From an uncultured Candidatus Saccharibacteria bacterium (GTDB lineage Bacteria; Patescibacteriota; Saccharimonadia; UBA4664; CAZJNH01), in the NCBI GenBank assembly GCA_964478595.1, contig CAYZIN010000001.1, positions 4,294 through 68,293 of the forward strand: DNA of 64,000 bases, given 5' to 3'. Both the position numbers and the translations under genes were made by a program. Of this stretch, positions 11,508 through 40,469 are shown one piece after another. Numbering within the stretch: the stretch's first letter is position 1; each line of letters starts with the position of its first letter. Under the pieces are notes generated by a model. The model was given only the letters and a program-made list of their open reading frames with translations. It was not told the DNA's origin and did no database searches.

Positions 11508-12431
11508 CTACTGCTGATGGGCAAGATATTCACGGATGAGTAGCGCTGCGGTCACACCTTCGCCAACAGCGCTGGCGATCTGAAAAGTTGAACCGGAGCG
11601 AACGTCTCCCGCACAAAACACGCCCGGTAGCGCAGTTTGGAATTTGGCGTCGGTAATTACAAATCCTCGTTCATCCAGTTTGACTTGGCCTTTTAGCCAG
11701 TCGGTGTTGGGTACCAGCCCAATAAAAATGAAAACGCCGTCTACCCCCAGCGGGCTTTCTTTGCCTGTTTTATCTTTTACGGTGACCGACTCGAGCATCT
11801 TTTCGCCGGCCAGTTTAGTGATTTCGGTCTGGAAATGAATGGTAATTTTCGGTTCAGCGTTAACTCGTTCGATTAAAACCTGGCTACCTTTTAAAGCCGG
11901 CCCGCGGACCAATAAATCAACGTGGGTAGCGAATTTGGTTAAAAATAACCCCTCTTGCAGCGCCGAATTCCCGCCGCCAACCACGGCCAAGCGCTTGCCG
12001 TGATAAATCGGCCCGTCACAGGTAGCGCAGTAGTGAATACCCTTGCCGGTTAGCTCGATTTCATTCGGCAAACCCAACCGACGGTAATGATTGCCAGTCG
12101 CAATTAACACTGCCTTAGCCAGATACGACTCGGACTTGGTTTGAATTTCGACTCCCTCGCCTCCCGACTTTAGCGAGAAAACCTCGCTGCCAGTGACAAT
12201 CTCGGCGCCGAATTTTTGGGCTTGTTTCATTAATTGCTCGCCCAGCTCCGGCCCGGCAATACCGTCGGGAAAACCCGGATAGTTTTCGATGATGGCGGTT
12301 TGAGAGACCAGCCCGCCGGCAATCACGTCGCGTTCCAATACTACGGTTGAAATATCTTCGCGCGCAGTATAAACGGCAGCAGCTAGCCCCGTGGGCCCAG
12401 CCCCGATTATCGCCAGATCCGTTGGCTTCAC
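11508..12431 (-). CDS. trxB: thioredoxin-disulfide reductase
   Basis: 307 aa; FAD-binding GAGPTG N-terminus, redox-active CATCDG, NAD(P)-binding GGGNSA. Confidence 0.9.
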   Translation of the reverse strand: MKPTDLAIIGAGPTGLAAAVYTAREDISTVVLERDVIAGGLVSQTAIIENYPGFPDGIAGPELGEQLMKQAQKFGAEIVTGSEVFSLKSGGEGVEIQTKSESYLAKAVLIATGNHYRRLGLPNEIELTGKGIHYCATCDGPIYHGKRLAVVGGGNSALQEGLFLTKFATHVDLLVRGPALKGSQVLIERVNAEPKITIHFQTEITKLAGEKMLESVTVKDKTGKESPLGVDGVFIFIGLVPNTDWLKGQVKLDERGFVITDAKFQTALPGVFCAGDVRSGSTFQIASAVGEGVTAALLIREYLAHQQ

Positions 12432-12712
12432 GCTAGGTCTAAGCTCTTGGTCAAACGATCCTGATCAAAACCTAAAATTCCTTCAGCCGAACCATTCTCG
12501 TGGGTAATGACGGTAAAAGGCACGCCCATTTGGCCCGACAAACGAATCATTTCTTCGGCTTGAGCGGCGTCGGCGTCAACGTGAGCCTCCTCATACTTAA
12601 CGCCCTTCGAATCTAAAAACGCCTTTTCGGCGCGACAGTAAGCGCAGGTTGCTGTGGTGTAAATCTTAACTTTAGCCATTACCTCTATTCTAACAAATCG
12701 TGCAAACGCCAA
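12428..12712 (-). CDS. glutaredoxin-like protein (NrdH/glutaredoxin family)
   Basis: 94 aa; CAYC redox motif in thioredoxin-fold context; 4-nt overlap with trxB. Confidence 0.7.
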   Translation of the reverse strand: MAFARFVRIEVMAKVKIYTTATCAYCRAEKAFLDSKGVKYEEAHVDADAAQAEEMIRLSGQMGVPFTVITHENGSAEGILGFDQDRLTKSLDLA

Positions 12713-13734
12713 AACCGGCCGGGAGATGTTTCCCCGACCGGTCTTCGCCGGCTTCGGCGTTGGTACGTCATGAGTATGAGGTAGTTCGTCAGCAGCAAAC
12801 CAATTGCGATGACGGTGAGCGGCTTAGATTTCGAGGCCGCGTGATGGGCCATCAACTTCGCCGGTCGGCTGAGCCTACGCGGCAACACCACACCGCCGGT
12901 GAGGGCATTGGCGGGAGGCGCTTGGACCCTTGCCTCAACTCCGGTCGCAGACTTCGGGCTCGGAACAACCGCCAGAATACTCGACAAAGGTCGCTCGAGA
13001 TTGGCCTTCACAACTGGCCCGACTCCAACTAGCCCTTCGACTAGCTTCATGCGGCCACCGACCTTCGCCAGACCGTTGCTCGGTTTCGAAACAACTTGCC
13101 CGGCAGCAACCATCTCGGATGAACCACCGCCGTCGAAGTTGACCGCCGTATAGCAACCAAGTTGCCGAGTAAGCGCCCTGGCCTCCGCCAAGGTGGCTCC
13201 CGGACTACCAGGTTGCCGACCGTCGACGACCACCAAAAGCAAGTCGCCGTTTTGGCGCTTGCAGGCAATGGTCCTAGGTTCCCGTTTCGTGCTGAAAAGG
13301 TCGTCTGGCAGAGTCGGCAAACGATCTTGGGGCTTGTTGGCCGTTTGATCGATCAATGTAACCGCTCCAGGTCCAATTCCGGGAACGTTAAAGCCAAGCA
13401 TCTGCTTCACAACCGGGTGAGTGCCCGCGATCGGTACCCCCGTTGACCGATTAAAGAACCCAGCGTTGACCGCCAATAAGCAATGGCTTTCTCGGCAAAT
13501 CTGGCTAGCAGTTTTCTTGCCGGCGCCAGACAGCACCTTCAGTTTGACCGGCGCCGATCCCGAAACGGCCGCCACGTGCACCAGGTTGGGGTGCCCTATG
13601 GCAGAAGTCTTCAGGTCGAACATGCTTACGCCAGGCCCCAGAACTCGTCCCGGAACCGTTTGAGCAGCTTCGGCCGACAGCGCAACTGCCTGCCAGCCCA
13701 AAACCACTAGCAAAATCAAGCTCCGTTTGAGCAC
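12685..13734 (-). CDS. secreted phosphodiester glycosidase family (NAGPA-like) protein
   Basis: 349 aa; signal peptide; NFDGGGSS motif typical of the phosphodiester glycosidase domain; markedly GC-rich coding sequence. Confidence 0.55.
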   Translation of the reverse strand: MLKRSLILLVVLGWQAVALSAEAAQTVPGRVLGPGVSMFDLKTSAIGHPNLVHVAAVSGSAPVKLKVLSGAGKKTASQICRESHCLLAVNAGFFNRSTGVPIAGTHPVVKQMLGFNVPGIGPGAVTLIDQTANKPQDRLPTLPDDLFSTKREPRTIACKRQNGDLLLVVVDGRQPGSPGATLAEARALTRQLGCYTAVNFDGGGSSEMVAAGQVVSKPSNGLAKVGGRMKLVEGLVGVGPVVKANLERPLSSILAVVPSPKSATGVEARVQAPPANALTGGVVLPRRLSRPAKLMAHHAASKSKPLTVIAIGLLLTNYLILMTYQRRSRRRPVGETSPGRFWRLHDLLE

Positions 13735-13825
13735 CTCTACCTCCTCAAGGTACTACTCCCCCATCCGTCAATTTTTACTATATACCTCTTATGCTTAGTG
13801 TCCACAAATTGAACCATAAGAACTA

Positions 13826-13854
13826 TTGACAAACCAGGAGTAAGATGATAGAAT
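13826..13854 (+). promoter_or_regulatory. sigma70-like promoter (TTGACA - 17 nt - TAGAAT) for the zinc-ribbon gene
   Basis: ttgacaaaccaggagtaagatgatagaat located about 45 nt upstream of the ATG at 13900, in an AT-rich spacer following GC-rich DNA. Confidence 0.55.
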
Positions 13855-13899
13855 GGTGCGCATCCGTAAGGAGTACAGCCCTACAATCTAAGGAGACAA

Positions 13900-14331
13900 A
13901 TGATCTGCTTCAAGTGTGAAGCGGAAGTCGACCCCGAAGCCGAGTGCTGCTGGAATTGCGGCACCGAGGCTGAGGAGATCAAGCACAACGCAGCGCGAAT
14001 CGAGTGGCATGAGCGCCAGCTCGAGCTGCAAGGCGAGGACTTCCTCACCGACCAGAAGCAACCGGTCTACGCCTTCGTCTATATCACCGTCCAGTACGGC
14101 GACTTCGACGAAGTAGACTTCCGCTTTTCGTCGGTTCTCTGGGATGCCGCGCACATAGATGATGACGTCGCCACTCAAAACGCCATCATCGGTAAGTACA
14201 AAGGCATCCTGGCCGGACACCTGCGCAAGAAGTTTAAGCAGGAGCCTCGGCTGCCGACAATCAAGTGGTTGGACTTTCTGGATGCTATCACCAGCCTCCG
14301 AGATCCACGCATTACCGCTCCTTCGACCTAA
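13900..14331 (+). CDS. zinc-ribbon-containing hypothetical protein
   Basis: 143 aa; N-terminal CxxC-x16-CxxC (CFKCE...CWNCG); own promoter and terminator; GC-rich codon usage (G/C third positions). Confidence 0.6.
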   Translation: MICFKCEAEVDPEAECCWNCGTEAEEIKHNAARIEWHERQLELQGEDFLTDQKQPVYAFVYITVQYGDFDEVDFRFSSVLWDAAHIDDDVATQNAIIGKYKGILAGHLRKKFKQEPRLPTIKWLDFLDAITSLRDPRITAPST

Positions 14332-14334
14332 CGG

Positions 14335-14381
14335 CCCCAGAAACAGCTTCAGCGCGAAGCCAGTTTCTGGGGTTTCGTGCG
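14335..14381 (+). terminator. rho-independent terminator
   Basis: Perfect 10-bp stem CCCCAGAAAC / GTTTCTGGGG (14335..14344 and 14363..14372) with 18-nt loop, followed by T-rich tract tttcgtgcgtttatgggtttattttt. Confidence 0.7.
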
Positions 14382-14452
14382 TTTATGGGTTTATTTTTAC
14401 GTCAAAATCTGTTATTTTGTACTGCTCGGTTTCGAACCACGATCTTTGAGAG

Positions 14453-15646
14453 GTGAATATGCATCGTGATCCCAAACCGGCCGGAAAGTTTCTGGCTGGC
14501 CAGCGTTTCATGAACGAAGATGACCCGGAGTTGGTGTGGCGGATGATAAGTTTGACTGTCCGCGGCATCAACTGGTACGCCATTTGGAGCGTTGGGCTGG
14601 CGGTGAACCTGCCGAAAGCTGGCGAGATCATCGTCCCTCAGCTGGGCAACAAGCGGCGCTACAAGCGCCCCGACCGCCCAGTTCGTTCTACCGATGAAGT
14701 ACCAACTCAGGCGGAGCGGCGCACCTACACCTGCGACACTCTGCGGCGAAAACTCGAGGTCCACGTTCCGGGCAACCTCGAACGCTCGCAGGCGGAGATC
14801 GAATACCAGGTGGAGGATTTTCGAAATGCCGCCGAAGCTGCCGCCCACGGGAAAGATCTGTCAGCCGAGGAACGTGAATACTATGCGTTCCGGCTGGGCG
14901 AAGATGCCAAAGCGCTCAGCGGCAAGCACAGTCCCTACTTAATGTCGGCCGCCGAGCGAGCTGAGGATGCCAAGGACTTCACCGACTCTCTCTCTCGTTA
15001 CAACCCGCAAGCCTCCGGTTTGAAGTTGCAGGCGGGGGAGCGTAACTTGGGTGCCCAGAGCGATCAGAACGAAAAGTCGAGGCGGGCCAACAGCAAACAA
15101 CGGCTGGCGCTTCGGGAATACGATGAGTTCATGCAAGCCACTCGGGCACAGGTGCGTTTGATTTTGCACCAGCCGCCAAGTCAGAAACTTAGCGAGAACC
15201 TGCGAAACTGGATCGGTCAGTTGGCGACTAAGCCCGACTACTTCGCGGCCAACTACATCGAAGCGTTGCTTGACCGCGATCCGCTGTCGGAAGATAGCTA
15301 CTCCCGCGGTCGACGAGTGCTGGTGGCCGAAGAGGGTTGGAGCTTGGTTGAGGAGATGATGTCCCAACTCAAGCGTCAGCCAGAACTCTACCGAAGCTAC
15401 CAGCTCAAGCTGCCGGACCTGCTGAATCAGATTGAGCAGCTTGGCTTGCCGCCGCACCGCAGATTGGTTGAGGAAGTTCGGCCGTACATTCGGAAGCTGG
15501 GTGAGGCGTTTATGGCGCCAAACGATGAGTTGCGCCTAAAGCTGATGAAGCGATCAGCCGAAAAAGTTCTAGCGGTCTTAAGGGACCGCGTCGAACCAAT
15601 TTGGCTGCCCGCACGGTTGCATCACCTAGCCGGTCTGCCGGTCTAG
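14453..15646 (+). CDS. hypothetical protein (397 aa), highly charged/alpha-helical
   Basis: Long GC-rich ORF with GAGGTG RBS 6 nt upstream; no motif I recognise; followed by a strong bidirectional terminator. Confidence 0.6.
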   Translation: MNMHRDPKPAGKFLAGQRFMNEDDPELVWRMISLTVRGINWYAIWSVGLAVNLPKAGEIIVPQLGNKRRYKRPDRPVRSTDEVPTQAERRTYTCDTLRRKLEVHVPGNLERSQAEIEYQVEDFRNAAEAAAHGKDLSAEEREYYAFRLGEDAKALSGKHSPYLMSAAERAEDAKDFTDSLSRYNPQASGLKLQAGERNLGAQSDQNEKSRRANSKQRLALREYDEFMQATRAQVRLILHQPPSQKLSENLRNWIGQLATKPDYFAANYIEALLDRDPLSEDSYSRGRRVLVAEEGWSLVEEMMSQLKRQPELYRSYQLKLPDLLNQIEQLGLPPHRRLVEEVRPYIRKLGEAFMAPNDELRLKLMKRSAEKVLAVLRDRVEPIWLPARLHHLAGLPV

Positions 15647-15656
15647 TTCGAAACCG

Positions 15657-15688
15657 AAAAGGCCTCCGCACATGCGGGGGCCTTTTCT
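15657..15688. terminator. bidirectional rho-independent terminator
   Basis: aaaa GGCCTCCGCA ca TGCGGGGGCC tttt: 10-bp stem (one G.U) flanked by A-run and T-run, between convergent genes. Confidence 0.75.
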
Positions 15689-15703
15689 CATTCTTAGCTC
15701 TGA

Positions 15704-15892
15704 TTACATCTGGGTCGGAGCTGGCGGAGTCGTACCGTCAGCGGGGTGTTCTTCCGGAGCAGCTGGAGCCGCCGGGTCGACTGGAGCAGCCGGAGCCGGT
15801 GCGCCACCCATGTCGGGGGCTGGAGTTACCGGAGCGTCGGTGGTCGGCTCGCTACCGGGTGTCGGGGTCGGGGTCGGGTTCATTGGATCCAT
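15704..15892 (-). CDS. small Pro/Ala/Thr-rich (low-complexity) hypothetical protein
   Basis: 62 aa MDPMNPTPTPTPGSEPTTDAPVTPAP...; ATG with GGA-containing upstream; ends at the shared terminator. The opposite-strand Gly/Ala-rich ORF 15672..15938 is the alternative reading; the call is uncertain. Confidence 0.3.
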   Translation of the reverse strand: MDPMNPTPTPTPGSEPTTDAPVTPAPDMGGAPAPAAPVDPAAPAAPEEHPADGTTPPAPTQM

Positions 15893-15953
15893 AATTTCTA
15901 GGTCCTTTCGTTATTATTTACCGTTGTGCCTAGCATAATATCAAGCCGGCTAT

Positions 15954-16523
15954 CTAGTCAACTCGAAGCAAAAATTGGCGCAAGGCCTCCGGATAAAGCT
16001 TACGCTCAAAAACTTTAATTCTCTCATGTAAAGTTTCTTCGGTGTCGCCGGGTTTAACCTCAACGCAAGCCTGGGCCAAAATTTCGCCCTCATCTACTTC
16101 TAGGTTGGCCACATGAATTGTCGTCCCGGTTATTTTTACGCCCATAGCTAGTGCGTCGCGGACGGCATGGCCACCTTTAAACGATGGCAGCAGGGCTGGG
16201 TGGGAATTTAGGATTTTGCCCGGGAAAGCGTCGAAAATTTCTTGAGATAACACGGTCATAAAGCCGGCCATGGCCACCACATCAACATTGTATTTTTGGA
16301 GTGCTTCAACCATTTGATGAGTATAGCCGGGACGATCAAAGTCTTTTTTAAAGCTTTCGCGTTTTACTAGCTCGGTTGCAATGCCGCCTTTTTCGGCAAT
16401 TTCCAAACCCCGACACTCCCGATCGGCCGCCACAACCGCAACTTCGATTCCGTCCTGAATCATCGCTTCCAGCAGCGTGCCGCTGCCAGATACCAATACC
16501 GCGAGTGTTTGTTGCTTTGCCAT
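15954..16523 (-). CDS. purN: phosphoribosylglycinamide formyltransferase
   Basis: 189 aa; LAVLVSGSGTLLEAMIQ N-terminus and formyltransferase catalytic-segment residues (NSHPALLPSFKG). Confidence 0.85.
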   Translation of the reverse strand: MAKQQTLAVLVSGSGTLLEAMIQDGIEVAVVAADRECRGLEIAEKGGIATELVKRESFKKDFDRPGYTHQMVEALQKYNVDVVAMAGFMTVLSQEIFDAFPGKILNSHPALLPSFKGGHAVRDALAMGVKITGTTIHVANLEVDEGEILAQACVEVKPGDTEETLHERIKVFERKLYPEALRQFLLRVD

Positions 16524-16605
16524 AGAGTTTTATCATACAGTGAGAAGCGAGAAATCTGTACCGCAATCTTGAATAAGCTTTAGGATTATGGTATAGTATC
16601 CAGCC

Positions 16606-17532
16606 ATGTTTAAACCTAAACAGCCTAAATTATCGGTGGTGATTCCGGCTTACAACGAGCAGGATTATATTGGCCGGACTTTAAAATCCCTAAAGGAGCA
16701 AAGCTTTAGGAATTTTGAGGTGATTGTGGTTGATAACAATTCGACGGATCAAACCGCCTCTATCGCCAAAGCAGCGGGAGCCCGAGTACTTAGTGAAAAG
16801 CAGCCAGGAGTTTGTCCGGCCCGCCAAACCGGAACTAAGGCTGCCAAGGGGGCAATCGTGGTGTCGACCGATGCCGATACGACTTTTCCGAAGCAGTGGC
16901 TAACCCGCATCGATGCCGTATTTGCCGCTAACCCCACCGCCACGTTAGTTGCCGGTCCGTTTGAGTTTGTTGATCCGCCCAAAACGATCGCCAAGATTTA
17001 TGAGTTGGCGGTCAAGGCCAGTAAAAAATTTTATGAGCGAACCGGCCGCATTTTCGATGCCGGTGCCTGTAACCTAGCCTTTCGCAAAACCGCCTGGGAA
17101 AAAATCGGCGGATATAACACCAAACTGACCCAAGGCGGTGACCAAATTGACTTTATCCGGCGCCTCCAACCGCTCGGCCCGCAAGTCGCCCTGTTCGACA
17201 ACCGGGTCAAAACCTCTAGCCGCCGGGCCAACCGCGGGACATTCTATTCATTGGTGATAACAATGGGTTTGTATTATTTTGCCGACTATTTCATTGGCCG
17301 GTTGGTTGGCCGGAGTCTGCTGGGAAGTTATAAGCCGATCCGGACTGAACAGCCTTCTAAGCTAGTCAAATTCGGTTTCTACTCGCTTTATTTGCTCGGC
17401 TTTTTACTTTTGCCCTATGCCGTGGTGACACATACCGCACTGGCACGAACCGCACAGGTCCAGCGGGTAGCTCGCGACATCCACCGCCTGCGAACCGACG
17501 TTCATATTCCTCGCCGGCATCGCGTCCAATGA
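16606..17532 (+). CDS. family 2 glycosyltransferase
   Basis: 308 aa; VVIPAYNEQDYIGRTL...VIVVDNNSTDQT GT2 signature, DAD motif; C-terminal TM segments. Confidence 0.8.
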   Translation: MFKPKQPKLSVVIPAYNEQDYIGRTLKSLKEQSFRNFEVIVVDNNSTDQTASIAKAAGARVLSEKQPGVCPARQTGTKAAKGAIVVSTDADTTFPKQWLTRIDAVFAANPTATLVAGPFEFVDPPKTIAKIYELAVKASKKFYERTGRIFDAGACNLAFRKTAWEKIGGYNTKLTQGGDQIDFIRRLQPLGPQVALFDNRVKTSSRRANRGTFYSLVITMGLYYFADYFIGRLVGRSLLGSYKPIRTEQPSKLVKFGFYSLYLLGFLLLPYAVVTHTALARTAQVQRVARDIHRLRTDVHIPRRHRVQ

Positions 17533-18110
17533 AGCAAATAGCCCTAACCTTTGACGACGGTCCTAATCCACCCTACACCACCGAACTGCTTAAAGTTTTA
17601 GCCAAACACCAGGTCAAAGCGGCTTTTTTTGTGGTAGGCCAAAATGCCCGGAAGCACCCGGAAGTGGTTAAAGACATTGCGGGGGCTGGTCACTTAGTCG
17701 GTCCTCATTCGATGCATCATCGGTTTAGAGATTATTTTTGGCCGGGGTACTTCGAGCGCGAGGTTGACCCAACAATCGAAATTATTACTAAATTAACTGG
17801 TCAGGCACCAACATATGCCCGCAACCCCTGGCTGTTTCCCCTGCCTGGCTTAAAACGCCAACTGGCAAAACGCGAGCTGAGTTTAACTTCTGGAACCTTT
17901 GGTAATCGAATCGAGATCTTTCAGCCCTCCGCGCTAGGGATAGCCAAAGCCGCGGCCAGGCGAGCCAAAGACGGCCAAATTCTAATTTTTCACGACGGTT
18001 ATAACGGCAAAGGCGGCCGGCGAGACCAAACAGTAGAGGCTGTCGACTTGCTAATTCCAAAGCTCCAGCAGCAGGGGTTTAAGCTAGTCCGGCTAGACGA
18101 GTTAATCTAA
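17529..18110 (+). CDS. polysaccharide deacetylase (NodB-type, CE4)
   Basis: 193 aa; LTFDDGPNPPYT and HSMHH motifs; 4-nt overlap with the GT2 gene (operon). Confidence 0.8.
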   Translation: MKQIALTFDDGPNPPYTTELLKVLAKHQVKAAFFVVGQNARKHPEVVKDIAGAGHLVGPHSMHHRFRDYFWPGYFEREVDPTIEIITKLTGQAPTYARNPWLFPLPGLKRQLAKRELSLTSGTFGNRIEIFQPSALGIAKAAARRAKDGQILIFHDGYNGKGGRRDQTVEAVDLLIPKLQQQGFKLVRLDELI

Positions 18111-28045: not shown

Positions 28046-29182
28046 TTGCGAGGCTTGGCGGTGCTGCTGGTTTTTTATTTTCACTCCGTCGCCGCCAATG
28101 CCGTAGCCCCTTATTTTTTCGGAGTCTCACCAAACGCCGCGCCGATTGCCCACTCCCCCGCCGATGTAATTTTGATTAACGGTCTTACCGGGGTAACTTT
28201 GTTTTTTGTGATCAGCGGGTTCATTTTTACCTGGGGCGCCTTCGAAACTTCCTACCTGAGCTGGCGGCGATTTTATTTAAATAGGATCTTACGGATTGCA
28301 CCGCTTTATTTACTCATAAATTTGGCGGCCTTTTTGCTGCCTCATGGCAATATGCCGTTATGGCAATTTGGCTTAAATCTAATCGGTTTCGGCAACTTCC
28401 ACCGAGGCTTTGGTATTTACGACACAGTTTTATGGACGATATCGCTCGAGATCCAGTTTTATTTACTCTTCCCGCTGTTGATGTTTTGGCTCAAAAGACG
28501 CGGCGAAATACTGCTCTGGGCATTAATTGGCATAATGCTCATAACTCGACTGTTAGTTAGGCTAGACGGCCCCTACGTTCACGACTTGGTGTATTACGGT
28601 CTTTTTGGCCGGCTCGACCAATTTTTAGCCGGTATGATTTTAGCTTGGCAGGCTAAAAAGCGCGGGTGGTTAAGCACAGACAAAACGCCCAGGGCAGATC
28701 TGTTTGGCGGGTTGATGTTTTCGGTCTTTGCCCTCGTAACTTTAGAGTGGATTTACCTAAAAACCGGCTGGAAATACGGCGAATCATTCTTTTTAGTTTT
28801 GTGGCCCACTTTGGAGGGGCTGGGTTGGGCCACCGTGATCGGTTATTACATCCGGTTTATTAGGCAGGGCTCGCCAAAATGGACAAAGCCACTACAGTTC
28901 GTCGGAGTAATCAGCTTTTCGCTCTATATTTTGCAGTACCCCTTAATTAAACTGCTTCAGCAGTACGGCTGGCAGCTCAACTGGCCAGGGCATCGTTTAG
29001 GGTCTGGACTGCTGTCGGCAACCTTCATAGCTTTGCCTATCGCACTAATAGGGGCGACCATTACTTATTATCTAATCGAAAAACCGCCTTTAAAATTGCG
29101 GCGGAGCTATACGACTATCGGGCGGGCTAAACTGTCGAAGGCGTGGGCGGTCTTTAATAAACCACCACGGCCTGATTACTAA
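28046..29182 (+). CDS. acyltransferase family 3 (membrane O-acyltransferase)
   Basis: 378 aa; LRGLAVLLVFYFH N-terminal motif and about 10 TM helices. Confidence 0.7.
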   Translation: MRGLAVLLVFYFHSVAANAVAPYFFGVSPNAAPIAHSPADVILINGLTGVTLFFVISGFIFTWGAFETSYLSWRRFYLNRILRIAPLYLLINLAAFLLPHGNMPLWQFGLNLIGFGNFHRGFGIYDTVLWTISLEIQFYLLFPLLMFWLKRRGEILLWALIGIMLITRLLVRLDGPYVHDLVYYGLFGRLDQFLAGMILAWQAKKRGWLSTDKTPRADLFGGLMFSVFALVTLEWIYLKTGWKYGESFFLVLWPTLEGLGWATVIGYYIRFIRQGSPKWTKPLQFVGVISFSLYILQYPLIKLLQQYGWQLNWPGHRLGSGLLSATFIALPIALIGATITYYLIEKPPLKLRRSYTTIGRAKLSKAWAVFNKPPRPDY

Positions 29183-31010
29183 TCCCCGGCACCGCATTCA
29201 TGTTCCCCAAAAGTGCTCCGGCCGACCAGTAAGAAGCTGAGTCGGTCCAAGGGTCGTTAACATAAAACCCAATCGGATTATCGGCGCTGCCATAAACACC
29301 GTAGACCACCCGGGCGTGCATTACGCTCGTCGCGTTAACCGGTCCGCCGGGAGTATTCCAGGTTTCGGCGAAGTCGTTCCCAATATGGCCATAGACCTCC
29401 ACTGGATTGCCGGCGTAGATGTTTGAAGCAATAAACTGAGCCGAGACTCCGTAGAATGAACTAGCACTGCGACCGTAACTTTGGGCGGCTGCTGCTACCG
29501 GTCCGGAATACACCCCATACCCCACATTCCAGTCAAACGTATCAATAAAGCCAACGAACATGTGGTTTGGATCATCCCAACTATTTGTGCTGGTGTCTTT
29601 TGCTCGGGGGTTGTAGCCAATTTTCCCAACGATATCCATCTCAGACGTCTGAATGCCCCTGTACGCCAGCAGCATCCGCAGTGATGTCAATTCGCAACTA
29701 CGTCCATACGGCTGCGCAAACAGCGGCACTCCAAGTTTGATGGTTTGTGATGTCGTGGTATAAGAGCCGCTTTGGACAACAGCGCTAGGCAGTCCCCAAG
29801 TTGGGGTCACCCCTGGCGCGATCTGAAAAGTATAGCCAGTTTGATAAGCGGCACCCGAAGGATAATAGGTCATGGTATTGCCGGACCAGGAGAACTTACC
29901 GGCAAGTGTCGGGCTAACGCTGAAGTGGGCCTGTGCCGAGGCGTGGTCAACCGCCTGGTCAAAAGTAATGTTCATGGGAGCGTTAAGCGATACCACTCCC
30001 CCGGGACTAAAGCTGGCTGTAACGGCTCCGTTGGTGGCGAATTGATACGGATGATCCGCCTCCAGCACTCCGCCAACTTTGGATCGCAAGCCTTTATTAA
30101 CCTGATATTTATAGGTCTTCCCCGGCTCCAGCGACGACGGCTTAAATTGATAAGTTTTGGGGTTTATCCAAGCGCCCTTGCCGGCCAGATCAAATTTGAA
30201 AGCGTTTGAACTGGTATTCATCGCCTGGTCAAAAACTATATCAACGGTTTGATCCTTGTTGAAGTGATCGCCGCTGCGGGCAGAGACGATAGCCGGTTGA
30301 GTTACAGTAATAAACTTGGATTTTAAAACCAGGCGGTTTTGCGGTGGCAAGCTGGGGTCTTCAACCGAAAAAGTATAGCTAGTTCCTTGTTTAAGCGAAG
30401 CGGCGGGCTTCCAGCTTAGGGTCTGGCCGGTAGAAGTCTGGTTCAACTTAACCGCCGGTTCCAGTTTTGCTACCAACTGCCTGGAATAATGAGTCGATTC
30501 GCTTTGGACGACGGTCAGATCGGCCGAAACACCGACATTTTGCGAATTGTTGGTTGGAGTAATGGATTGGATACCAATGGCTATCTCGGTTGTGAAAAAC
30601 CGATGAATATCGGGCAGCGCCATGCCGGTTAAAGAGCGCTTTAGGCCGGTGACCTCAACGGAGTAAGTCTTGGCAACCTTGAGCTTATCTTTAGGCGTAA
30701 ATTGAACTGCTGATACCCCTAAAGGAGTGCGAATTTGGCGCCAACTGCCCGGTGTGGCCGGCGAAATTGATACTTGATACCGGCTCGAAACGTCTTGCCC
30801 GAACTCCAAGGTTACCGGCCCATTAACCGGGATAGAATCTTGATGAAACACCGCCGCCGAAAAAGGCATTTGGGTTCTGGCTAGAATTATTCCGACCGTC
30901 AAAATTAACCCCACCAACCCAATATGAGTTGGTTTTTTTAGCCAATTAAGCCCCTGCCGAAGCAGCGAACGGATTTTCGGCAACCTGAATTTCTTGCCGA
31001 TCAAATACAC
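29154..31010 (-). CDS. large secreted protein with repeated Ig-like/beta-sandwich regions and a C-terminal C39-like (papain-fold) peptidase domain
   Basis: 618 aa; N-terminal TM/signal; C-terminal region YGRSCELTSLRMLLAYRG ... GHIGNDF ... HARVVYGV gives a Cys/His arrangement like Peptidase_C39_2. Confidence 0.5.
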   Translation of the reverse strand: MYLIGKKFRLPKIRSLLRQGLNWLKKPTHIGLVGLILTVGIILARTQMPFSAAVFHQDSIPVNGPVTLEFGQDVSSRYQVSISPATPGSWRQIRTPLGVSAVQFTPKDKLKVAKTYSVEVTGLKRSLTGMALPDIHRFFTTEIAIGIQSITPTNNSQNVGVSADLTVVQSESTHYSRQLVAKLEPAVKLNQTSTGQTLSWKPAASLKQGTSYTFSVEDPSLPPQNRLVLKSKFITVTQPAIVSARSGDHFNKDQTVDIVFDQAMNTSSNAFKFDLAGKGAWINPKTYQFKPSSLEPGKTYKYQVNKGLRSKVGGVLEADHPYQFATNGAVTASFSPGGVVSLNAPMNITFDQAVDHASAQAHFSVSPTLAGKFSWSGNTMTYYPSGAAYQTGYTFQIAPGVTPTWGLPSAVVQSGSYTTTSQTIKLGVPLFAQPYGRSCELTSLRMLLAYRGIQTSEMDIVGKIGYNPRAKDTSTNSWDDPNHMFVGFIDTFDWNVGYGVYSGPVAAAAQSYGRSASSFYGVSAQFIASNIYAGNPVEVYGHIGNDFAETWNTPGGPVNATSVMHARVVYGVYGSADNPIGFYVNDPWTDSASYWSAGALLGNMNAVPGISNQAVVVY

Positions 31011-31445: not shown

Positions 31446-32819
31446 TCACGAAGCATAAGAACTACACTCAGATGCCGGCGTTTGCCCCGACGTTAGTTGT
31501 CCCAGCCAATTCAAGACTGGACCCTTCCCGGCACTAAACATTGATGAGTAGTGATTAGCGTCTGAAAGTGCCCACTGAAGGTTTGATTGGTTGCCTTTGC
31601 ATATACGGTGAGCCAGATCGGTCTGGGCACCAACCAAGATTACCTGGTCTTTACGGCCCGAGACCATTAGCACCGGCACGTCTTCTGGCTCCCCGGCTAA
31701 GTTTTGGTCTAGCTGATGGCCGAGATCTGGCGCCACCGAATTGATCGAGCCGGCTCGCATGGCGGCCAGAAAATTCGGTTGATAGAGGGCATCCAAACTG
31801 CTGGGCGTGCCGAAATACTCTATCCCGCTAGAGGCAAAAGGCTCGACGTCATTAATGCAGTATTTGGCGGCGTCGGCATCTAGGGTTGGGGAATACCTTG
31901 GAGTAAATATTGCCTGAGGATCGGTGGTTTGACCGTAGTAGTCTTTATAGGCGGCCACAACATATGGAGGAAGCCAAACGGTGGTGGCGCCTTTGGCGCT
32001 ATCGGCAAAGGTTCGCTGCATATCCGTGGCCGGCGCGAATAAAATAAGTCCAGCGATTTTGATTTCCGGAGCATATTTAGGCCTCAGCTTTTCCGCCCAC
32101 AAAGCGGCGTGGCCTCCTTGGGAGTAGCCGGCCAGAAACACCTGATCACTAACTACCGACCCTCGAAAATCCGGATCGGCCCGGAAAATCTGCATCGCCC
32201 GAACCAAATCAAGCATTACTCTGGCCTCACTTTCGCCTACGAAATAAGGCGAAATAACGCCGTTGCGGTTGGCGTAATCGGTCATCGCGACTGGGTACCC
32301 CTGGCCGGCATAAAAACTCAAAACGGAGTCGTAACTCCCCCAATTCTTACCGCTGTTACGCTCCAAAGTTGGGGCGCACGCAGGACCGGGACCAGTAGTA
32401 CCGGGACCGAAAGCGATCAGCGGTTGAGCGCCGGCCCCCACCGGTAAATAGGCTCGAGCGGTAACCTCGATCTCCTGTTGGTTGCGGGCATCAACACTGG
32501 TATAGGTAAAGTCGAACTCCTCTACCGAATAACGAGCGCCCGCCGGGGTTAGGTTCCCCGAGGGAGTAATTTTTCTAATTCGGCCCCCTACTGGTTGGGT
32601 CTTTGGCGTTTGCACCTTTATTTGCTTAGTTACTTCTGCCACCGGTCGGCGATACCACCATAAGGACAAGCTAATCAAAGCTAAAAGGCCGAGGATGATT
32701 TTATAACCATGGCGCCGGTGCCACTTAGGCAGTTGTTCGGTTTCAGCCGTAACTTCAGCTACCTCGGTAGGTTCTTCCTCGATTATTTCTTCCGGACTAG
32801 GAATATTGGTGTCAGGCAT
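31446..32819 (-). CDS. secreted lipase-like alpha/beta hydrolase (LIP / secretory lipase family)
   Basis: 457 aa; TM anchor; GYSQGGHAALWA nucleophile elbow. Confidence 0.6.
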   Translation of the reverse strand: MPDTNIPSPEEIIEEEPTEVAEVTAETEQLPKWHRRHGYKIILGLLALISLSLWWYRRPVAEVTKQIKVQTPKTQPVGGRIRKITPSGNLTPAGARYSVEEFDFTYTSVDARNQQEIEVTARAYLPVGAGAQPLIAFGPGTTGPGPACAPTLERNSGKNWGSYDSVLSFYAGQGYPVAMTDYANRNGVISPYFVGESEARVMLDLVRAMQIFRADPDFRGSVVSDQVFLAGYSQGGHAALWAEKLRPKYAPEIKIAGLILFAPATDMQRTFADSAKGATTVWLPPYVVAAYKDYYGQTTDPQAIFTPRYSPTLDADAAKYCINDVEPFASSGIEYFGTPSSLDALYQPNFLAAMRAGSINSVAPDLGHQLDQNLAGEPEDVPVLMVSGRKDQVILVGAQTDLAHRICKGNQSNLQWALSDANHYSSMFSAGKGPVLNWLGQLTSGQTPASECSSYAS

Positions 32820-36232: not shown

Positions 36233-36877
36233 TTACTGCTGAACGATGACGGTCGCCTTCTCTGGAATCCAGTGGTAGAACGCATAGGCGTCAGACCACG
36301 GGATCCGCACACAGCCGTGCGAGGCATTGGTGCGATAAGGAACATTTTCGCCATGGATGGCGTCAAGGTTCCCTTTAAACCACACTGGCCACTTCATGAG
36401 CCCGATTGTTGAGTCGTACCAGCCGTCGGGTCCCATATTGTCGACCCCGCCGTTGTAGTCCGAGATGTCTTGGCGATGAGCCGTAAACACTCCGGTTGGA
36501 GTGTTCGCGTCACCGCTGTTCTCGTGACCCTTGTAGAACTCGTCGTAGTGACCACCTTTGCCAGAGGAAACCGGCAACGTGCCAACGATCAGGCCGTCTT
36601 GCATCTCGTATAACTGAAAGTCTGAGATGTCGACCACGACGTAGCGACCCTTGAGGTCGGCGATGTGATCGTAGGGTGGGGTAGTCGGCCGCGGCGGGAG
36701 ATATGACATCTTCGACTTCGGCACAATTACGCGTTGGGCACGGGCAGGTGCATGCGCCACCGACCCGGCCGGAGCCGTAACTCCGAGAGCCGAAAACGCT
36801 AATACCGACAACGAAACTATCAAACGGTGCACCCATCCTCCATTCGTACAGGGAATACGGTGCGAGCATAATACCAT
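36233..36877 (-). CDS. L,D-transpeptidase (YkuD domain)
   Basis: 214 aa; signal/TM, catalytic HGCVRIP motif. Confidence 0.8.
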   Translation of the reverse strand: MVLCSHRIPCTNGGWVHRLIVSLSVLAFSALGVTAPAGSVAHAPARAQRVIVPKSKMSYLPPRPTTPPYDHIADLKGRYVVVDISDFQLYEMQDGLIVGTLPVSSGKGGHYDEFYKGHENSGDANTPTGVFTAHRQDISDYNGGVDNMGPDGWYDSTIGLMKWPVWFKGNLDAIHGENVPYRTNASHGCVRIPWSDAYAFYHWIPEKATVIVQQ

Positions 36878-39692: not shown

Positions 39693-40469
39693 TTAAGCGG
39701 CAAGCCGTCGGGATTTCTCCAACGCGATGTCGCTGACCTTATGGCCGAACATCGTCGTCATGTGCCCAGTTGCTCCGGCGCGGACGAACACAACCTCGGG
39801 CGGAAGTCCAGGCGGTCGGAAGAGATGACCCAGGAAGTACTTGATCGATCTCTCCAGGGAGATGCACGACCGTCTTGGTCGCGCGACCCGTTCGCCGATA
39901 CCGGTGGTCTGCCGTAGATCGACCAACTCTGGCCAGCTGGTGGCAACGTCCAGACGGAGCTGACGGATGTCGTCGCCGACGAAGGCGATGTCGTGCAGTC
40001 CGGGGGCGAATTCGGCCAGCAATTGCTCGACCCTTTCCAGGCTGAGCTGCCAGACGAATGAGACCATCTTGGATGCGTCGCGCCGCAGGACGAAGGCCAT
40101 CGTCGCCGCCAGCCAGTTGCGAAGCCAGCGGCCAACATCGGAGTCGGTTATATCAACCCCGTTGGTGGGCGAGTGCCATGTAACAACTCGCTTGACCTTA
40201 TCCGGCCGGCTCATCCCGTAACGGGCTGCGTAAGCCCCACCATAGGAGTGGCCGACGATGATGGCGGGCGCGTTAGCTTTCTCGAGCTTCGCGTCGATCT
40301 CGGCTTCGATCTCCGGGTAGGTGTCCTTCATCGAGCGCAAGGCCAGGTGAGGGATGTTGACGTAGTCGGAGTGGGCCAACCAACACTGCAAGGCGTAAGC
40401 CGCCCGGCCGATACCTTTGCCGGGGACTATGCTACCCCCGATGTCTATGACTGGGTTTTGCGGGTCCAT
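39693..40469 (-). CDS. alpha/beta hydrolase (esterase/lipase-like), GC-rich, likely horizontally acquired
   Basis: 258 aa; VGHSYGGAYAARYG nucleophile elbow; about 62% GC against about 49% in flanking housekeeping genes. Confidence 0.65.
   Translation of the reverse strand: MDPQNPVIDIGGSIVPGKGIGRAAYALQCWLAHSDYVNIPHLALRSMKDTYPEIEAEIDAKLEKANAPAIIVGHSYGGAYAARYGMSRPDKVKRVVTWHSPTNGVDITDSDVGRWLRNWLAATMAFVLRRDASKMVSFVWQLSLERVEQLLAEFAPGLHDIAFVGDDIRQLRLDVATSWPELVDLRQTTGIGERVARPRRSCISLERSIKYFLGHLFRPPGLPPEVVFVRAGATGHMTTMFGHKVSDIALEKSRRLAA

What the first reader, a model, noticed from the sequence alone, without database searches (positions are those of the whole stretch)
12690..15900. About 3.2-kb GC-rich island carrying a self-contained zinc-ribbon + 397-aa unknown two-gene module
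Seen in sequence:
- Base composition jumps from about 49% to about 60% GC across 12.7-15.9 kb, with strong G/C third-position bias.
- The island holds a phosphodiester-glycosidase-like secreted protein, then an AT-rich spacer with a near-consensus TTGACA-17-TAGAAT promoter (13826..13854).
- Next comes a 143-aa CxxC-x16-CxxC zinc-ribbon protein, a perfect 10-bp-stem terminator (14335..14381), and a 397-aa highly charged protein (GAGGTG RBS) with no recognisable domain.
- A strong bidirectional terminator (15657..15688) and a tiny Pro/Ala/Thr-rich ORF close the island.

Inference:
- The composition and the autonomous promoter/terminator set point to recent acquisition from a high-GC donor.
- For an episymbiotic CPR lineage, an actinobacterial host or its phages would be an obvious source.
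- The ZnR + large-unknown pair is the kind of compact cassette seen for toxin/immunity, anti-phage or phage-derived functions.
- I cannot assign it to any described system from sequence.
Basis: partly seen in the sequence, partly recalled or inferred. Interest (0 to 1): 0.68.

Follow-up and report, generated by a model that had tools for sequence, protein, structure and literature searches.

The report
Conserved fast-evolving orphan gene cluster
The GC-rich stretch is real, but it is not a recent foreign import: it is a four-gene cluster of unknown function that sits at the same chromosomal spot in a related genome, where its proteins have diverged much more than its neighbours while its control DNA has been kept.

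Summary
Observation confirmed. 12690-15900 is 57.2% GC against 49.9% elsewhere, the top 3.2-kb window of the 64 kb. The promoter, both hairpins and all ORFs are where stated. Corrections: the zinc ribbon is CxxC-x10-CxxC, and the large protein most likely starts at ATG 14459 (395 aa).

The recent-import reading is not supported. A related genome (L083) carries the same four genes at the same site: NAGPA glycosidase, zinc-ribbon protein, large protein and tiny Pro/Ala-rich protein. Its flanking housekeeping proteins are 61-94% identical, but the cluster proteins only about 33-50%. There are no mobility genes, flanking repeats or adjacent tRNA. Neither protein matches phages, plasmids, PADLOC or PHROGs.

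The large protein belongs to a very rare family: about 9 members among 1.84 billion cluster representatives. Its gene is GC-richer than its neighbours in every locus that has neighbouring genes to compare, so the GC excess is a family trait.

The AlphaFold2 model is confident (pLDDT 83.6) and all-alpha. It matches only generic four-helix bundles.

The zinc-ribbon gene precedes the large gene in 4 loci, but a terminator and a conserved 35-nt block with an extended -10 separate them, so they are probably separate transcripts. Function remains unknown. My best guess is a lineage-specific cytoplasmic protein pair tied to the cell envelope or host interface.

The parts
12685..13734 (-). 349-aa NAGPA-type phosphodiester glycosidase. 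It has an N-terminal signal-peptide-like segment and a C-terminal hydrophobic anchor followed by RRSRRR. It lies directly upstream of the glutaredoxin/thioredoxin-reductase genes on the same strand.
   Evidence: PF09992 E 2e-22. PDB relatives are 6ozd (E 5e-13) and NAGPA 6pku (E 4e-5). The L083 orthologue is 44% identical and has the same architecture.
13777..13804 (-). Promoter-like site TGGACA-16-TATAGT for the NAGPA gene.
   Evidence: Scores 10/12. The block ATACCYCTTATGCTT is conserved in L084 and, less closely, in L083.
13826..13854 (+). Near-consensus sigma-70 promoter TTGACA-17-(TG)aTAGAAT for the zinc-ribbon gene.
   Evidence: Scores 11/12 with a TG extension. TTGACA and TAGAAT are conserved in L083; L084 has TTGACA and TATCAT.
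13900..14331 (+). 143-aa acidic protein (pI 4.8) with an N-terminal Cys4 zinc ribbon (C3, C6, C17, C20) and an uncharacterised C-terminal part.
   Evidence: Only sub-threshold zinc-ribbon Pfam hits. Only itself was found in the 5.8-billion-protein word-index search. Orthologues precede the large gene in L083, L084 and L085, with C3, C6, C17 and W18 invariant.
14335..14372 (+). Intrinsic-terminator-like hairpin after the ZnR stop codon: a 10-bp perfect stem plus an inner 5-bp stem, followed by a T-rich tail to about 14398.
   Evidence: dG -27.2 kcal/mol, z -4.1. A hairpin of different sequence sits at the same place in L083, L084 and L085.
14403..14437 (+). Conserved 35-nt non-coding block. It contains an extended -10 (TG 14410-11, TATTTT 14413-18), read here as the large gene's own promoter, and then the start of the leader.
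   Evidence: Nearly identical in L083 and L084 although the proteins are 27-39% identical. Its -10 aligns with TATAAT in L085, and L086 has TGGTATAAT at the equivalent offset. Unique in the window. Not more structured than shuffled sequence. No Rfam match.
14426..14437 (+). TCGGTTTCGAAC, perfectly complementary to 15646-15657, which begins at the last base of the large gene's stop codon.
   Evidence: Inverted repeat I12, 12/12. L084 has 11 nt at the same offsets; L083 has 11 positions, 10 of them Watson-Crick and one G-U as RNA. One position is A/U in the window and G/C in L083 and L084.
14459..15646 (+). 395-aa basic (pI 9.1) all-alpha protein with a small N-terminal beta element, a disordered basic linker and then helical bundles. 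It founds a very rare uncharacterised family.
   Evidence: Full HMMER scan: 8 hits at E <= 1e-3, one of them the query itself and one a spurious repeat protein. The real relatives are P0003 (39% identical), P0004 (27%), P0005 and P0007-9, plus P0010. Alignment A1 has 17 invariant columns. AlphaFold2 pLDDT 83.6, pTM 0.77. Only generic four-helix-bundle matches.
15646..15657 (+). GTTCGAAACCGA, the 3' partner of 14426-14437. On the minus strand it is also part of the T-rich tail of the tiny gene's terminator.
   Evidence: The tail TTTTCG(G/A)TTTCGA is conserved in L083 and L084.
15656..15687 (.). Bidirectional intrinsic terminator shared by the convergent large and tiny genes.
   Evidence: 14 pairs. 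dG -28.2 kcal/mol (z -5.5) on the plus strand and -25.5 kcal/mol (z -4.6) on the minus strand. Equivalent hairpins occur in L083 and L084.
15704..15892 (-). 62-aa acidic (pI 4.05, no Lys or Arg) Pro/Ala/Thr/Gly-rich protein, probably disordered. It is a real conserved gene.
   Evidence: Orthologues at the same position and orientation in L083 and L084 are 49-56% identical. Third codon positions differ 38-41 times against 11-22 at positions 1 and 2. The ribosome-binding site GAAAGGA is conserved.

Best explanation
The GC-rich stretch is a vertically inherited, lineage-restricted accessory gene cluster, not a recently imported island.

Shown:
- It holds four genes, each with its own promoter-like site or ribosome-binding site and a terminator-like hairpin.
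  - A secreted, membrane-anchored NAGPA-type phosphodiester glycosidase (-).
  - A 143-aa Cys4 zinc-ribbon protein (+), behind a near-consensus promoter and closed by a strong hairpin.
  - A 395-aa basic all-alpha helical-bundle protein (+), preceded by a conserved 35-nt block that contains an extended -10.
  - A 62-aa acidic Pro/Ala-rich protein (-), convergent on a shared bidirectional terminator.
- The same four genes occupy the same chromosomal site in a related genome. There the cluster's proteins have diverged far more than the flanks, while the promoters, the ribosome-binding-site block and the terminator flanks are kept.
- The large gene is GC-richer than its neighbours in every host where neighbours can be compared.

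Inferred:
- The zinc-ribbon protein and the helical protein act together in the cytoplasm, as a small Zn-ribbon adaptor or regulator with a helical scaffold. The terminator plus the internal promoter would set their expression ratio.
- Their role concerns the cell envelope or host interface. The clues are adjacency to the secreted glycosidase here and to GH42-like or cell-wall genes in distant family members. That would also explain the fast protein divergence.
- The GC and GC3 excess reflects a property of these genes, for example codon choice linked to strong expression, not a donor.
For: Conserved position and divergence:
- L083 (GCA_964547425.1) has the order H+-PPase, TrxB, Grx | NAGPA, 136-aa ZnR, 390-aa large, 71-aa tiny | formyltransferase, response regulator, DEAD helicase.
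- Flanking proteins are 61-94% identical. NAGPA is 44%, the large protein 38.5%, and ZnR matches only over its N-terminal 49 aa at 41%.

The pair and the family:
- ZnR precedes the large gene in the window, L083, L084 and L085.
- The tiny gene is conserved in 3 loci with a coding-type substitution pattern.
- The large protein is under constraint: 17 invariant columns, and a confident model from only 7 sequences (pLDDT 83.6).

Composition:
- The large gene exceeds the rest of its locus in GC in 8 of 8 loci.
- It exceeds the mean GC and GC3 of neighbouring genes in L085, L086, L087 and L089, as well as in the window and L083.

Regulation:
- Regulatory DNA is more conserved than coding DNA. Intergenic identity is 0.63-0.70 against 0.39-0.50 for coding sequence, with a block at 0.8-0.9 over 14385-14460.
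- A hairpin follows ZnR in all 4 loci.

No signs of mobility:
- No flanking direct repeats of note, and the nearest tRNA is more than 10 kb away.
- ZnR and the large protein have no phage, plasmid, defence or PHROG relatives.

Glycan context:
- The NAGPA gene is divergent from ZnR here and in L083.
- A GH42-like gene lies downstream in L086, L089 and L090. CW_binding_2 and polysaccharide-synthesis genes lie nearby in L087 and L086.
Against: - Only one syntenic relative long enough to judge was available. The lineage is absent from the species representatives that were scanned; the best TrxB hit there was 55% identical. So 'conserved across the lineage' rests on two genomes plus one short contig.
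- More distant Saccharibacteria-like loci (L003, L008) keep the Grx-TrxB and sugar-metabolism synteny but lack the cluster. It was therefore gained at some point, and an old transfer is not excluded.
- A GC excess that persists despite heavy divergence could also mean repeated exchange with a GC-richer gene pool.
- There is no evidence of physical interaction between ZnR and the large protein.
- ZnR is absent next to the more distant family members in L086-L090.
- The two genes look separately transcribed.
- The envelope or host-interface link is adjacency only.
- Fold searches gave no functional lead.
Confidence: 0.5

Rival explanations
1. The site is a hypervariable cassette locus. It is stable, but the gene bodies are repeatedly replaced by recombination with divergent alleles from related, somewhat GC-richer lineages. 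The conserved promoter, leader and terminator blocks act as the recombination anchors. Diversifying selection from the host interface or from phages would maintain many alleles.
For: - Non-coding blocks are 80-90% identical next to coding sequences that encode proteins only 27-39% identical.
- Gene trees disagree. The large protein of the window is closest to L083 (score 703 against 224). ZnR is closest to L084 (160 against 60). The ZnR C-terminal part in L083 is unrelated to the other two.
- The GC excess persists despite heavy divergence.
Against: - There are only three loci, so the incongruence could be rate noise.
- No recombinase and no repeated cassettes were found, and there are no paralogous silent copies in the window or the loci.
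- Regulatory blocks can be conserved simply because they are functional.
Confidence: 0.2
2. The pair is a conflict system, either toxin-antitoxin or anti-phage. The acidic zinc-ribbon protein would be the abundant antitoxin or sensor, and the basic large protein the effector, kept lower by the terminator.
For: - The charges are opposite: pI 4.8 against 9.1.
- There is a strong promoter upstream of ZnR and an attenuating hairpin before the large gene.
- Both proteins diverge fast, and the ZnR C-terminus appears swapped.
- The MqsA antitoxin also starts with a Cys4 zinc ribbon (from my own knowledge, not tested here).
Against: - No PADLOC match at E <= 1, and no toxin or antitoxin Pfam or NCBIfam match.
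- The genes are 127 nt apart with a terminator and an apparent second promoter, unlike typical overlapping toxin-antitoxin pairs.
- The chromosomal position is stable among housekeeping genes.
- The large protein is a plain helical bundle with no nuclease, kinase or pore-like fold match.
- Distant family members lack the ZnR partner.
Confidence: 0.12
3. This is a recent horizontal acquisition from a high-GC donor, such as an actinobacterial host or its phage.
For: - The region is 57% GC against 50% elsewhere, and GC3 reaches 0.74.
- The genes carry their own promoters and terminators.
- The cluster is absent beside Grx-TrxB in more distant relatives L003 and L008.
Against: - The cluster is present at the same site in L083 at 33-50% protein identity, so it predates that split.
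- The GC excess is seen for this gene family in hosts whose neighbouring DNA is 45-57% GC.
- No integrase, transposase, adjacent tRNA or flanking repeats were found.
- ZnR and the large protein have no homologues in phage, viral-contig, plasmid or JGI metagenome collections.
Confidence: 0.06
4. The 12-nt inverted repeats that bracket the large gene (14426-14437 and 15646-15657) are recombination sites of an invertible, phase-variable segment rather than RNA-pairing partners.
For: A perfect 12-bp inverted repeat flanks exactly the ribosome-binding site plus the ORF. It is conserved in 3 loci, with one position changed in both arms.
Against: - All three loci are in the same orientation.
- No recombinase gene is nearby.
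- The right arm is also the T-rich tail of the tiny gene's terminator, which alone could explain why it is conserved.
Confidence: 0.03

Closest known systems
NAGPA / phosphodiester glycosidase family (Pfam PF09992; PDB 6pku, 6ozd)
   Same: The 349-aa protein at 12685-13734 matches the domain well above threshold. Like many bacterial members, it looks exported.
   Different: Only the C-terminal half of the Pfam model is matched (profile positions 87-161 of 169). The substrate and catalytic residues were not examined. This concerns the neighbouring gene, not the ZnR/large pair.
Small zinc-ribbon proteins (Pfam DZR PF12773, Zn_ribbon_3 PF13248, Zn_Ribbon_1 PF13240)
   Same: An N-terminal CxxC-x10-CxxC motif in the first 20 residues, conserved in 4 orthologues.
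   Different: Scores are below every gathering threshold (best 14.6 bits against 27.3). The roughly 120-aa remainder matches nothing.
Horizontally acquired genomic islands
   Same: A compositional outlier whose genes carry their own expression signals.
   Different: Present at the same site in a diverged relative. No mobility genes, no tRNA or direct-repeat borders, and no identifiable donor. The GC excess follows the gene family across hosts.
Type II toxin-antitoxin pairs with a zinc-ribbon antitoxin (MqsRA type)
   Same: A small acidic Cys4-ribbon protein lies next to a larger basic protein.
   Different: No sequence or profile match. The gene order is the opposite of MqsR-MqsA. There is a long spacer with a terminator. 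The large protein is 395 aa of helical bundle, unlike the small MqsR RNase fold. The comparison with MqsRA is from memory, not from a test.
Four-helix-bundle domains (HPt/CheA-P1, cytochrome b562, FliS, flagellin D0/D1)
   Different: The matches are generic topology only, at 5-17% identity. There is no invariant histidine for an HPt role, and nothing matches the full length.

Membership tests
NAGPA phosphodiester glycosidase (PF09992) | Domain profile match above the curated threshold | tested here: met
   80.5 bits against a cut-off of 25, E 2e-22. PDB relatives include NAGPA 6pku.
NAGPA phosphodiester glycosidase (PF09992) | Catalytic residues and activity on GlcNAc-1-phosphodiester substrates | not tested
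Zinc-ribbon domain (PF12773 / PF13248 / PF13240) | Four metal-binding cysteines arranged as two CxxC knuckles | tested here: met
   C3, C6, C17 and C20 are read directly from the sequence. C3, C6 and C17 are invariant and the fourth cysteine is present in all 4 orthologues.
Zinc-ribbon domain (PF12773 / PF13248 / PF13240) | Profile match above the curated threshold | tested here: not met
   The best hit is 14.6 bits against a cut-off of 27.3.
Recently acquired genomic island | Atypical base composition and codon usage | tested here: met
   57.2% against 49.9% GC; z(GC3) is 1.6-3.5.
Recently acquired genomic island | Absent from the orthologous site of related genomes | tested here: not met
   All four genes are present at the same site in L083.
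Recently acquired genomic island | Mobility signatures: integrase or transposase, a tRNA border, flanking direct repeats | tested here: not met
   The neighbours are housekeeping genes. The nearest tRNA is at 26011. No bracketing repeats were found.
Recently acquired genomic island | An identifiable donor lineage with closer homologues | tested here: not met
   Besides the query itself and a spurious repeat protein (P0006), the scan of 1.84 billion representatives found only 6 relatives, at 23-39% identity, in unnamed metagenome contigs. Phage, plasmid, IMG/VR and JGI scans found nothing.
Known anti-phage defence systems (PADLOC-DB v2) | Any component matching a defence-protein model | tested here: not met
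   No family at E <= 1 for ZnR, the large protein or NAGPA. Newer model sets were not available.
Type II toxin-antitoxin module | Tightly coupled, co-transcribed gene pair | tested here: not met
   A 127-nt spacer (stop 14331 to ATG 14459) holds a -27 kcal/mol hairpin with a T-rich tail and a conserved extended -10. Transcription itself was not measured.
Type II toxin-antitoxin module | Toxin or antitoxin domain recognisable by profile or fold | tested here: not met
   Pfam, NCBIfam and PDB profile searches and the fold searches were all negative.
Phage-derived genes | Relatives among phage proteins or in viral contigs | tested here: not met
   PHROGs gives nothing better than E 0.001. INPHARED tblastn found none. 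IMG/VR found none. BFVD fold search had no hit at E <= 1e-3.
[not shown]
   None of the 17 invariant columns of A1 is a histidine.

The most novel reading that the evidence does not exclude
The cluster would be a host-interface or host-range determinant of a Saccharibacteria-like episymbiont. It combines a secreted NAGPA glycosidase, a Zn-ribbon protein, a previously unseen all-alpha protein and a disordered acidic peptide. Its gene bodies would be under diversifying selection or cassette exchange between conserved regulatory anchors. The large gene's mRNA would be closed by pairing of its extreme 5' end with the sequence right after its stop codon. On this reading, ZnR plus the large protein would be a new kind of two-protein system with no relatives in any curated library.
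Probability: 0.12. Interest if true: 0.6.

Novelty: categorically new. Interest (0 to 1): 0.33.

Why it matters
Practical lesson: a GC-rich patch with its own promoters and terminators is not enough to call recent gene transfer. One syntenic relative overturned that reading here, and the GC excess turned out to follow the gene family across hosts.

Biological interest: the ZnR and large proteins, and the tiny acidic protein, belong to families with no curated description. 'Categorically new' here means only that no relation to any known family could be detected, not that a new mechanism has been shown. The large protein has only about 9 known members among 1.84 billion cluster representatives. 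Its confidently predicted fold matches nothing specific.

The pattern of fast-diverging proteins under conserved regulatory DNA, next to a secreted glycan-phosphodiester hydrolase, marks the cluster as a reasonable candidate for surface or host-interaction biology in a poorly sampled lineage. It remains one of the many uncharacterised gene sets in such genomes. Nothing yet shows an unusual mechanism.

Tried and rejected
Searches that found nothing:
- Word-index homology searches for both proteins found only the query itself. A profile of 7 family members added one member, P0010.
- Alignment A1 was too divergent for locus scans.
- The two-sequence alignment A4 found nothing in JGI metagenomes or IMG/VR.
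- The conserved 26-nt DNA pattern found nothing in JGI metagenomes.
- Rfam on 12300-16700 gave only a sub-threshold sRNA hit over the terminator.
- Profile searches against PDB sequences gave chance-level hits only.

Leads that were dropped:
- The TrxB-based genome scan returned only distant loci (<= 55% identity). It gave partial synteny that stops at the glutaredoxin gene.
- The conserved leader does not fold better than shuffled sequence, so a structured RNA element is not supported. RNAalifold's pairing of the block with the ribosome-binding site has no covariation behind it.
- I checked for a leader peptide across the conserved block by reading frames. The variable bases fall on codon positions 1 and 2, and L084 has no start codon, so this was rejected.
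- The P0006 hit (E 1e-5, 5 repeats matching residues 12-51) is a repetitive surface-type protein and was treated as spurious.
- L001 and L002 are 100% identical to the window at the DNA level, so they are the same organism and not independent evidence.

- The AlphaFold database fold library was unavailable.
The single-sequence ZnR model is unusable (pLDDT 45).

Full report

Yes. The stretch 12690-15900 is 57.2% GC against 49.9% for the rest of the window. It is the highest of all 3.2-kb windows (mean 50.4%, sd 1.7%). In 300-nt windows it reaches 0.60-0.62, and it dips in the two AT-rich spacers.

- GC3 is 0.63, 0.74 and 0.69 for the three main genes, against 0.546 +/- 0.055 for 68 other ORFs. 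They rank 2nd, 3rd and 5th of 71 ORFs by GC.
- The promoter TTGACA-17-TAGAAT (13826-13854, 11/12, TG-extended) and the terminator 15656-15687 were found by the scans.
- The hairpin 14335-14372 folds at -27.2 kcal/mol (z -4.1) and the terminator at -28.2 kcal/mol (z -5.5).
- Three corrections apply.
  - The zinc ribbon is C3xxC6-x10-C17xxC20, not x16.
  - The large protein most likely starts at ATG 14459 (395 aa). This matches database protein P0001 and the L083 orthologue. The GTG at 14453 lies inside the ribosome-binding site.
  - Other genes in the window are equally GC3-rich, for example 39693-40469 (GC3 0.76).

**2. What the genes are**

- The 349-aa protein is a NAGPA-type phosphodiester glycosidase (PF09992, E 2e-22; PDB relatives). 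Read directly, it has an N-terminal signal-like segment and a C-terminal hydrophobic anchor.
- The 143-aa and 395-aa proteins match nothing significant in Pfam, NCBIfam, PADLOC or PHROGs. This holds even when all family members are scanned.
- Word-index searches of 5.8 billion proteins returned only the proteins themselves.
- A full HMMER scan of 1.84 billion cluster representatives found a very small family for the large protein: P0003 (39% identical, full length), P0004 (27%), and P0005, P0007, P0008 and P0009. A profile search added P0010.
- The seven-sequence alignment has 17 invariant columns. They include a DxxxRxN loop motif, a KP pair, and RxR...W at the C-terminus.

**3. Genomic context elsewhere**

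P0003 lies on a 92-kb contig of GCA_964547425.1 (L083), and the neighbourhood is syntenic:

- Left flank: transketolase, ribulose-phosphate epimerase, RpiB, GAPDH, an unknown gene, H+-PPase, TrxB, Grx.
- Cluster: NAGPA (-), a 136-aa protein (+), the 390-aa protein (+), a 71-aa ORF (-).
- Right flank: formyltransferase, response regulator, DEAD helicase.

| Genes compared with L083 | Protein identity |
|---|---|
| Flanking proteins | 61-94% |
| NAGPA | 44% |
| Large protein | 38.5% |
| Small protein (first 49 residues only, the zinc ribbon) | 41% |

- L084, a 2.4-kb contig, has a 137-aa zinc-ribbon protein, the 376-aa family member and a 75-aa convergent ORF.
- L085 has a 123-aa zinc-ribbon protein followed by the 373-aa member.
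- The more distant members lack a ZnR partner.
  - In L086, L089 and L090 they sit by a tRNA-Asn and a GH42-like gene.
  - L087 has a CW_binding_2 gene nearby, and L086 has polysaccharide-synthesis genes nearby.
  - L088 is too short to show any neighbours.
- Deeper Saccharibacteria-like relatives (L003, L008) keep the Grx-TrxB and sugar-metabolism genes but have other genes where the cluster would be.

The cluster is therefore older than the split between the window genome and L083, but it is not universal.

**4. The tiny ORF is a gene**

- The three orthologues are 49-56% identical.
- In the minus-strand frame, third codon positions differ 38-41 times against 11-22 at positions 1 and 2, with 19-22 synonymous codon changes per pair.
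- The ribosome-binding site GAAAGGA and the terminator are conserved.
- The product is acidic (pI 4.05), has no Lys or Arg, and is rich in Pro, Ala, Thr and Gly.

**5. Composition is a family trait**

- The large gene is GC-richer than the rest of its locus in 8 of 8 loci.
- It exceeds the mean GC and GC3 of neighbouring genes in L085, L086, L087 and L089, as well as in the window and L083.
- These hosts have neighbouring DNA of about 45% to 57% GC.
- A donor signature would not reappear as a constant offset in such different genomes.
- The cause is unknown. Codon choice tied to strong expression, or exchange with a GC-richer gene pool, are both possible.

**6. No sign of mobility or of a phage or plasmid origin**

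- There is no integrase or transposase among the neighbours.
- The nearest tRNA is at 26011.
- No repeats bracket the region.
- ZnR and the large protein have no match in any of the following collections.
  - INPHARED phages.
  - PLSDB plasmids.
  - IMG/VR.
  - JGI metagenomes.
  - BFVD, by fold search of the large protein only.
- NAGPA shows only domain-level similarity to some phage proteins, none of them from actinophages.

**7. Structure**

- AlphaFold2 on the 7-sequence alignment gave pLDDT 83.6 and pTM 0.77.
  - The model has a small N-terminal beta-beta-alpha-beta element (28-58) and a disordered basic linker (62-87).
  - Helical bundles follow from residue 92 to 375, including a 54-residue helix.
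- Foldseek against the PDB gave no hit at E <= 1e-3.
- No histidine is invariant, so an HPt role is unlikely.
- The single-sequence ZnR model is unusable (pLDDT 45).

**8. Regulation**

The ZnR stop codon is followed by a hairpin in all four loci, with different stem sequences. After it comes a 35-nt block, 14403-14437, CAAAATCTGTTATTTTGTACTGCTCGGTTTCGAAC.

- The block is almost identical in L083 and L084, although the adjacent proteins are 27-39% identical.
- It contains TGtTATTTT. This aligns with TATAAT in L085, and L086 has TGGTATAAT at the equivalent offset. I read it as the large gene's own extended -10 promoter. That is an inference; the transcription start was not mapped.
- The block does not fold better than shuffled sequence and has no Rfam match.
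- The promoters of ZnR and NAGPA are also conserved.
- Overall, intergenic DNA is 0.63-0.70 identical and coding DNA 0.39-0.50.

The genes therefore look like separate transcription units under conserved control, not a compact operon.

**9. An unexplained detail**

- TCGGTTTCGAAC (14426-14437) would lie at or near the predicted 5' end of the large gene's mRNA. It is perfectly complementary to 15646-15657, which begins at the last base of the stop codon.
- The same holds at the same offsets in L084 (11 nt) and in L083 (11 positions, 10 of them Watson-Crick and one G-U).
- Position 11 of the pairing is A/U in the window and G/C in the other two.
- The 10-mer TCGGTTTCGA occurs 5 times in the window against 0.26 expected.
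- Possible readings are 5'/3' mRNA pairing, a repeated protein-binding site, or coincidence with the T-rich tail of the tiny gene's terminator. An invertible segment seems unlikely.

**10. Interpretation**

- Best supported (confidence 0.5): a vertically inherited, lineage-restricted, fast-evolving accessory cluster.
  - The ZnR and helical proteins would be cytoplasmic partners.
  - Their role would be linked to the envelope or host interface. The function part of this is inference from adjacency alone.
- Rivals:
  - Cassette-type allele exchange at a stable site (0.2). It is supported by the incongruent similarities of ZnR and the large protein, and by an unrelated ZnR C-terminus in L083.
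  - A toxin-antitoxin or defence pair (0.12).
  - Recent transfer from a high-GC donor (0.06).
  - An invertible segment (0.03).

**11. Novelty and interest**

- The NAGPA gene is an ordinary member of a known family.
- The ZnR, large and tiny proteins have no detectable relation to any curated family, defence model, phage family or solved fold beyond generic bundles. In that limited sense they are new.
- Uncharacterised lineage-specific genes are common in such genomes, and no unusual mechanism has been demonstrated.
- Interest is modest (0.33). It could rise if the cluster proves to be a host-range determinant or a new two-protein system.

The assignment of the organism to Saccharibacteria rests only on the nearest flanking-gene relatives, L008 among them. 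I did not verify it independently.

Noticed in passing
window 14403-14437: A 35-nt non-coding block between the ZnR terminator and the large gene's ribosome-binding site is nearly identical in L083 and L084, although the flanking proteins are only 27-39% identical. It contains an extended -10 (TGtTATTTT). It is not more structured than shuffled sequence, has no Rfam match, and is unique in the window.
   Followed up: yes
window 14426-14437 and 15646-15657: A 12-nt perfect inverted repeat brackets the large gene, from its leader to just after its stop codon. It is conserved at the same offsets in L083 and L084, with one position changed in both arms (A/U against G/C). It may be 5'/3' mRNA pairing or a repeated binding site.
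   Followed up: partly
window 8009, 13080, 14426, 15648, 63941: The 10-mer TCGGTTTCGA occurs 5 times against 0.26 expected (0 of 100 shuffles reach 5). Three of the five copies lie in the cluster. A 17-nt near-copy (16/17) of the leader sequence lies inside the NAGPA coding region at 13077-13093.
   Followed up: partly
window 16606-18110; L083 14701-17542: These are the real gene-content differences between the two genomes. A GT2 glycosyltransferase plus a polysaccharide deacetylase are present only in the window, between the formyltransferase and the response regulator. LPG_synthase_C, DUF998 and a cytochrome P450 are present only in L083.
   Followed up: partly
window 39693-40469 (-): This alpha/beta-hydrolase gene has the highest GC (61.5%) and GC3 (0.76) of the window. 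It is a stronger single-gene compositional outlier than any gene of the cluster. Other GC3-rich genes are 56511-57329 (amino-acid kinase), 36233-36877 (YkuD L,D-transpeptidase) and 20199-20921 (FMN reductase, 94% identical to its L083 orthologue).
   Followed up: no
window 42492-45371 (-): The leucyl-tRNA synthetase (959 aa) carries a NUDIX domain (residues 379-507, E 5e-10) directly after the editing domain.
   Followed up: no
L083 9443-9853 compared with window 13900-14331 and L084 118-531: The C-terminal two-thirds of the ZnR protein is alignable between the window and L084 (score 79). In L083 it is unrelated to both (scores -8 and -29), although the large protein of L083 is the window's closest relative. 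This points to a domain swap or extreme divergence.
   Followed up: partly
L086 5599-7982; L089 3467-5907: The distant members of the large-protein family sit just downstream of a tRNA-Asn gene. An intrinsic terminator follows, and then a GH42-like glycosidase gene. The gene call that overlaps the large gene in L086 probably starts too early.
   Followed up: partly
window 21012-22247 (+): This is a second zinc-ribbon protein in the window: 411 aa with an N-terminal double zinc ribbon (PF13240, E 8e-10). It is unrelated to the 143-aa protein by profile search.
   Followed up: no
window 12679-12712: The NAGPA stop (12685) abuts the glutaredoxin gene on the same strand. The listed TTG start of the glutaredoxin gene overlaps NAGPA by 28 nt, and an internal ATG at about 12679 is the more likely start. 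NAGPA may therefore be co-transcribed with Grx-TrxB here. In L083 the gap is 263 nt.
   Followed up: no
window 57378-59180 (-), 29154-31010 (-), 31446-32819 (-): The alanyl-tRNA synthetase is only 600 aa. A 618-aa protein combines Big_5 Ig-like domains with a C39-like peptidase domain, and it lies next to a secretory-lipase-family protein.
   Followed up: no
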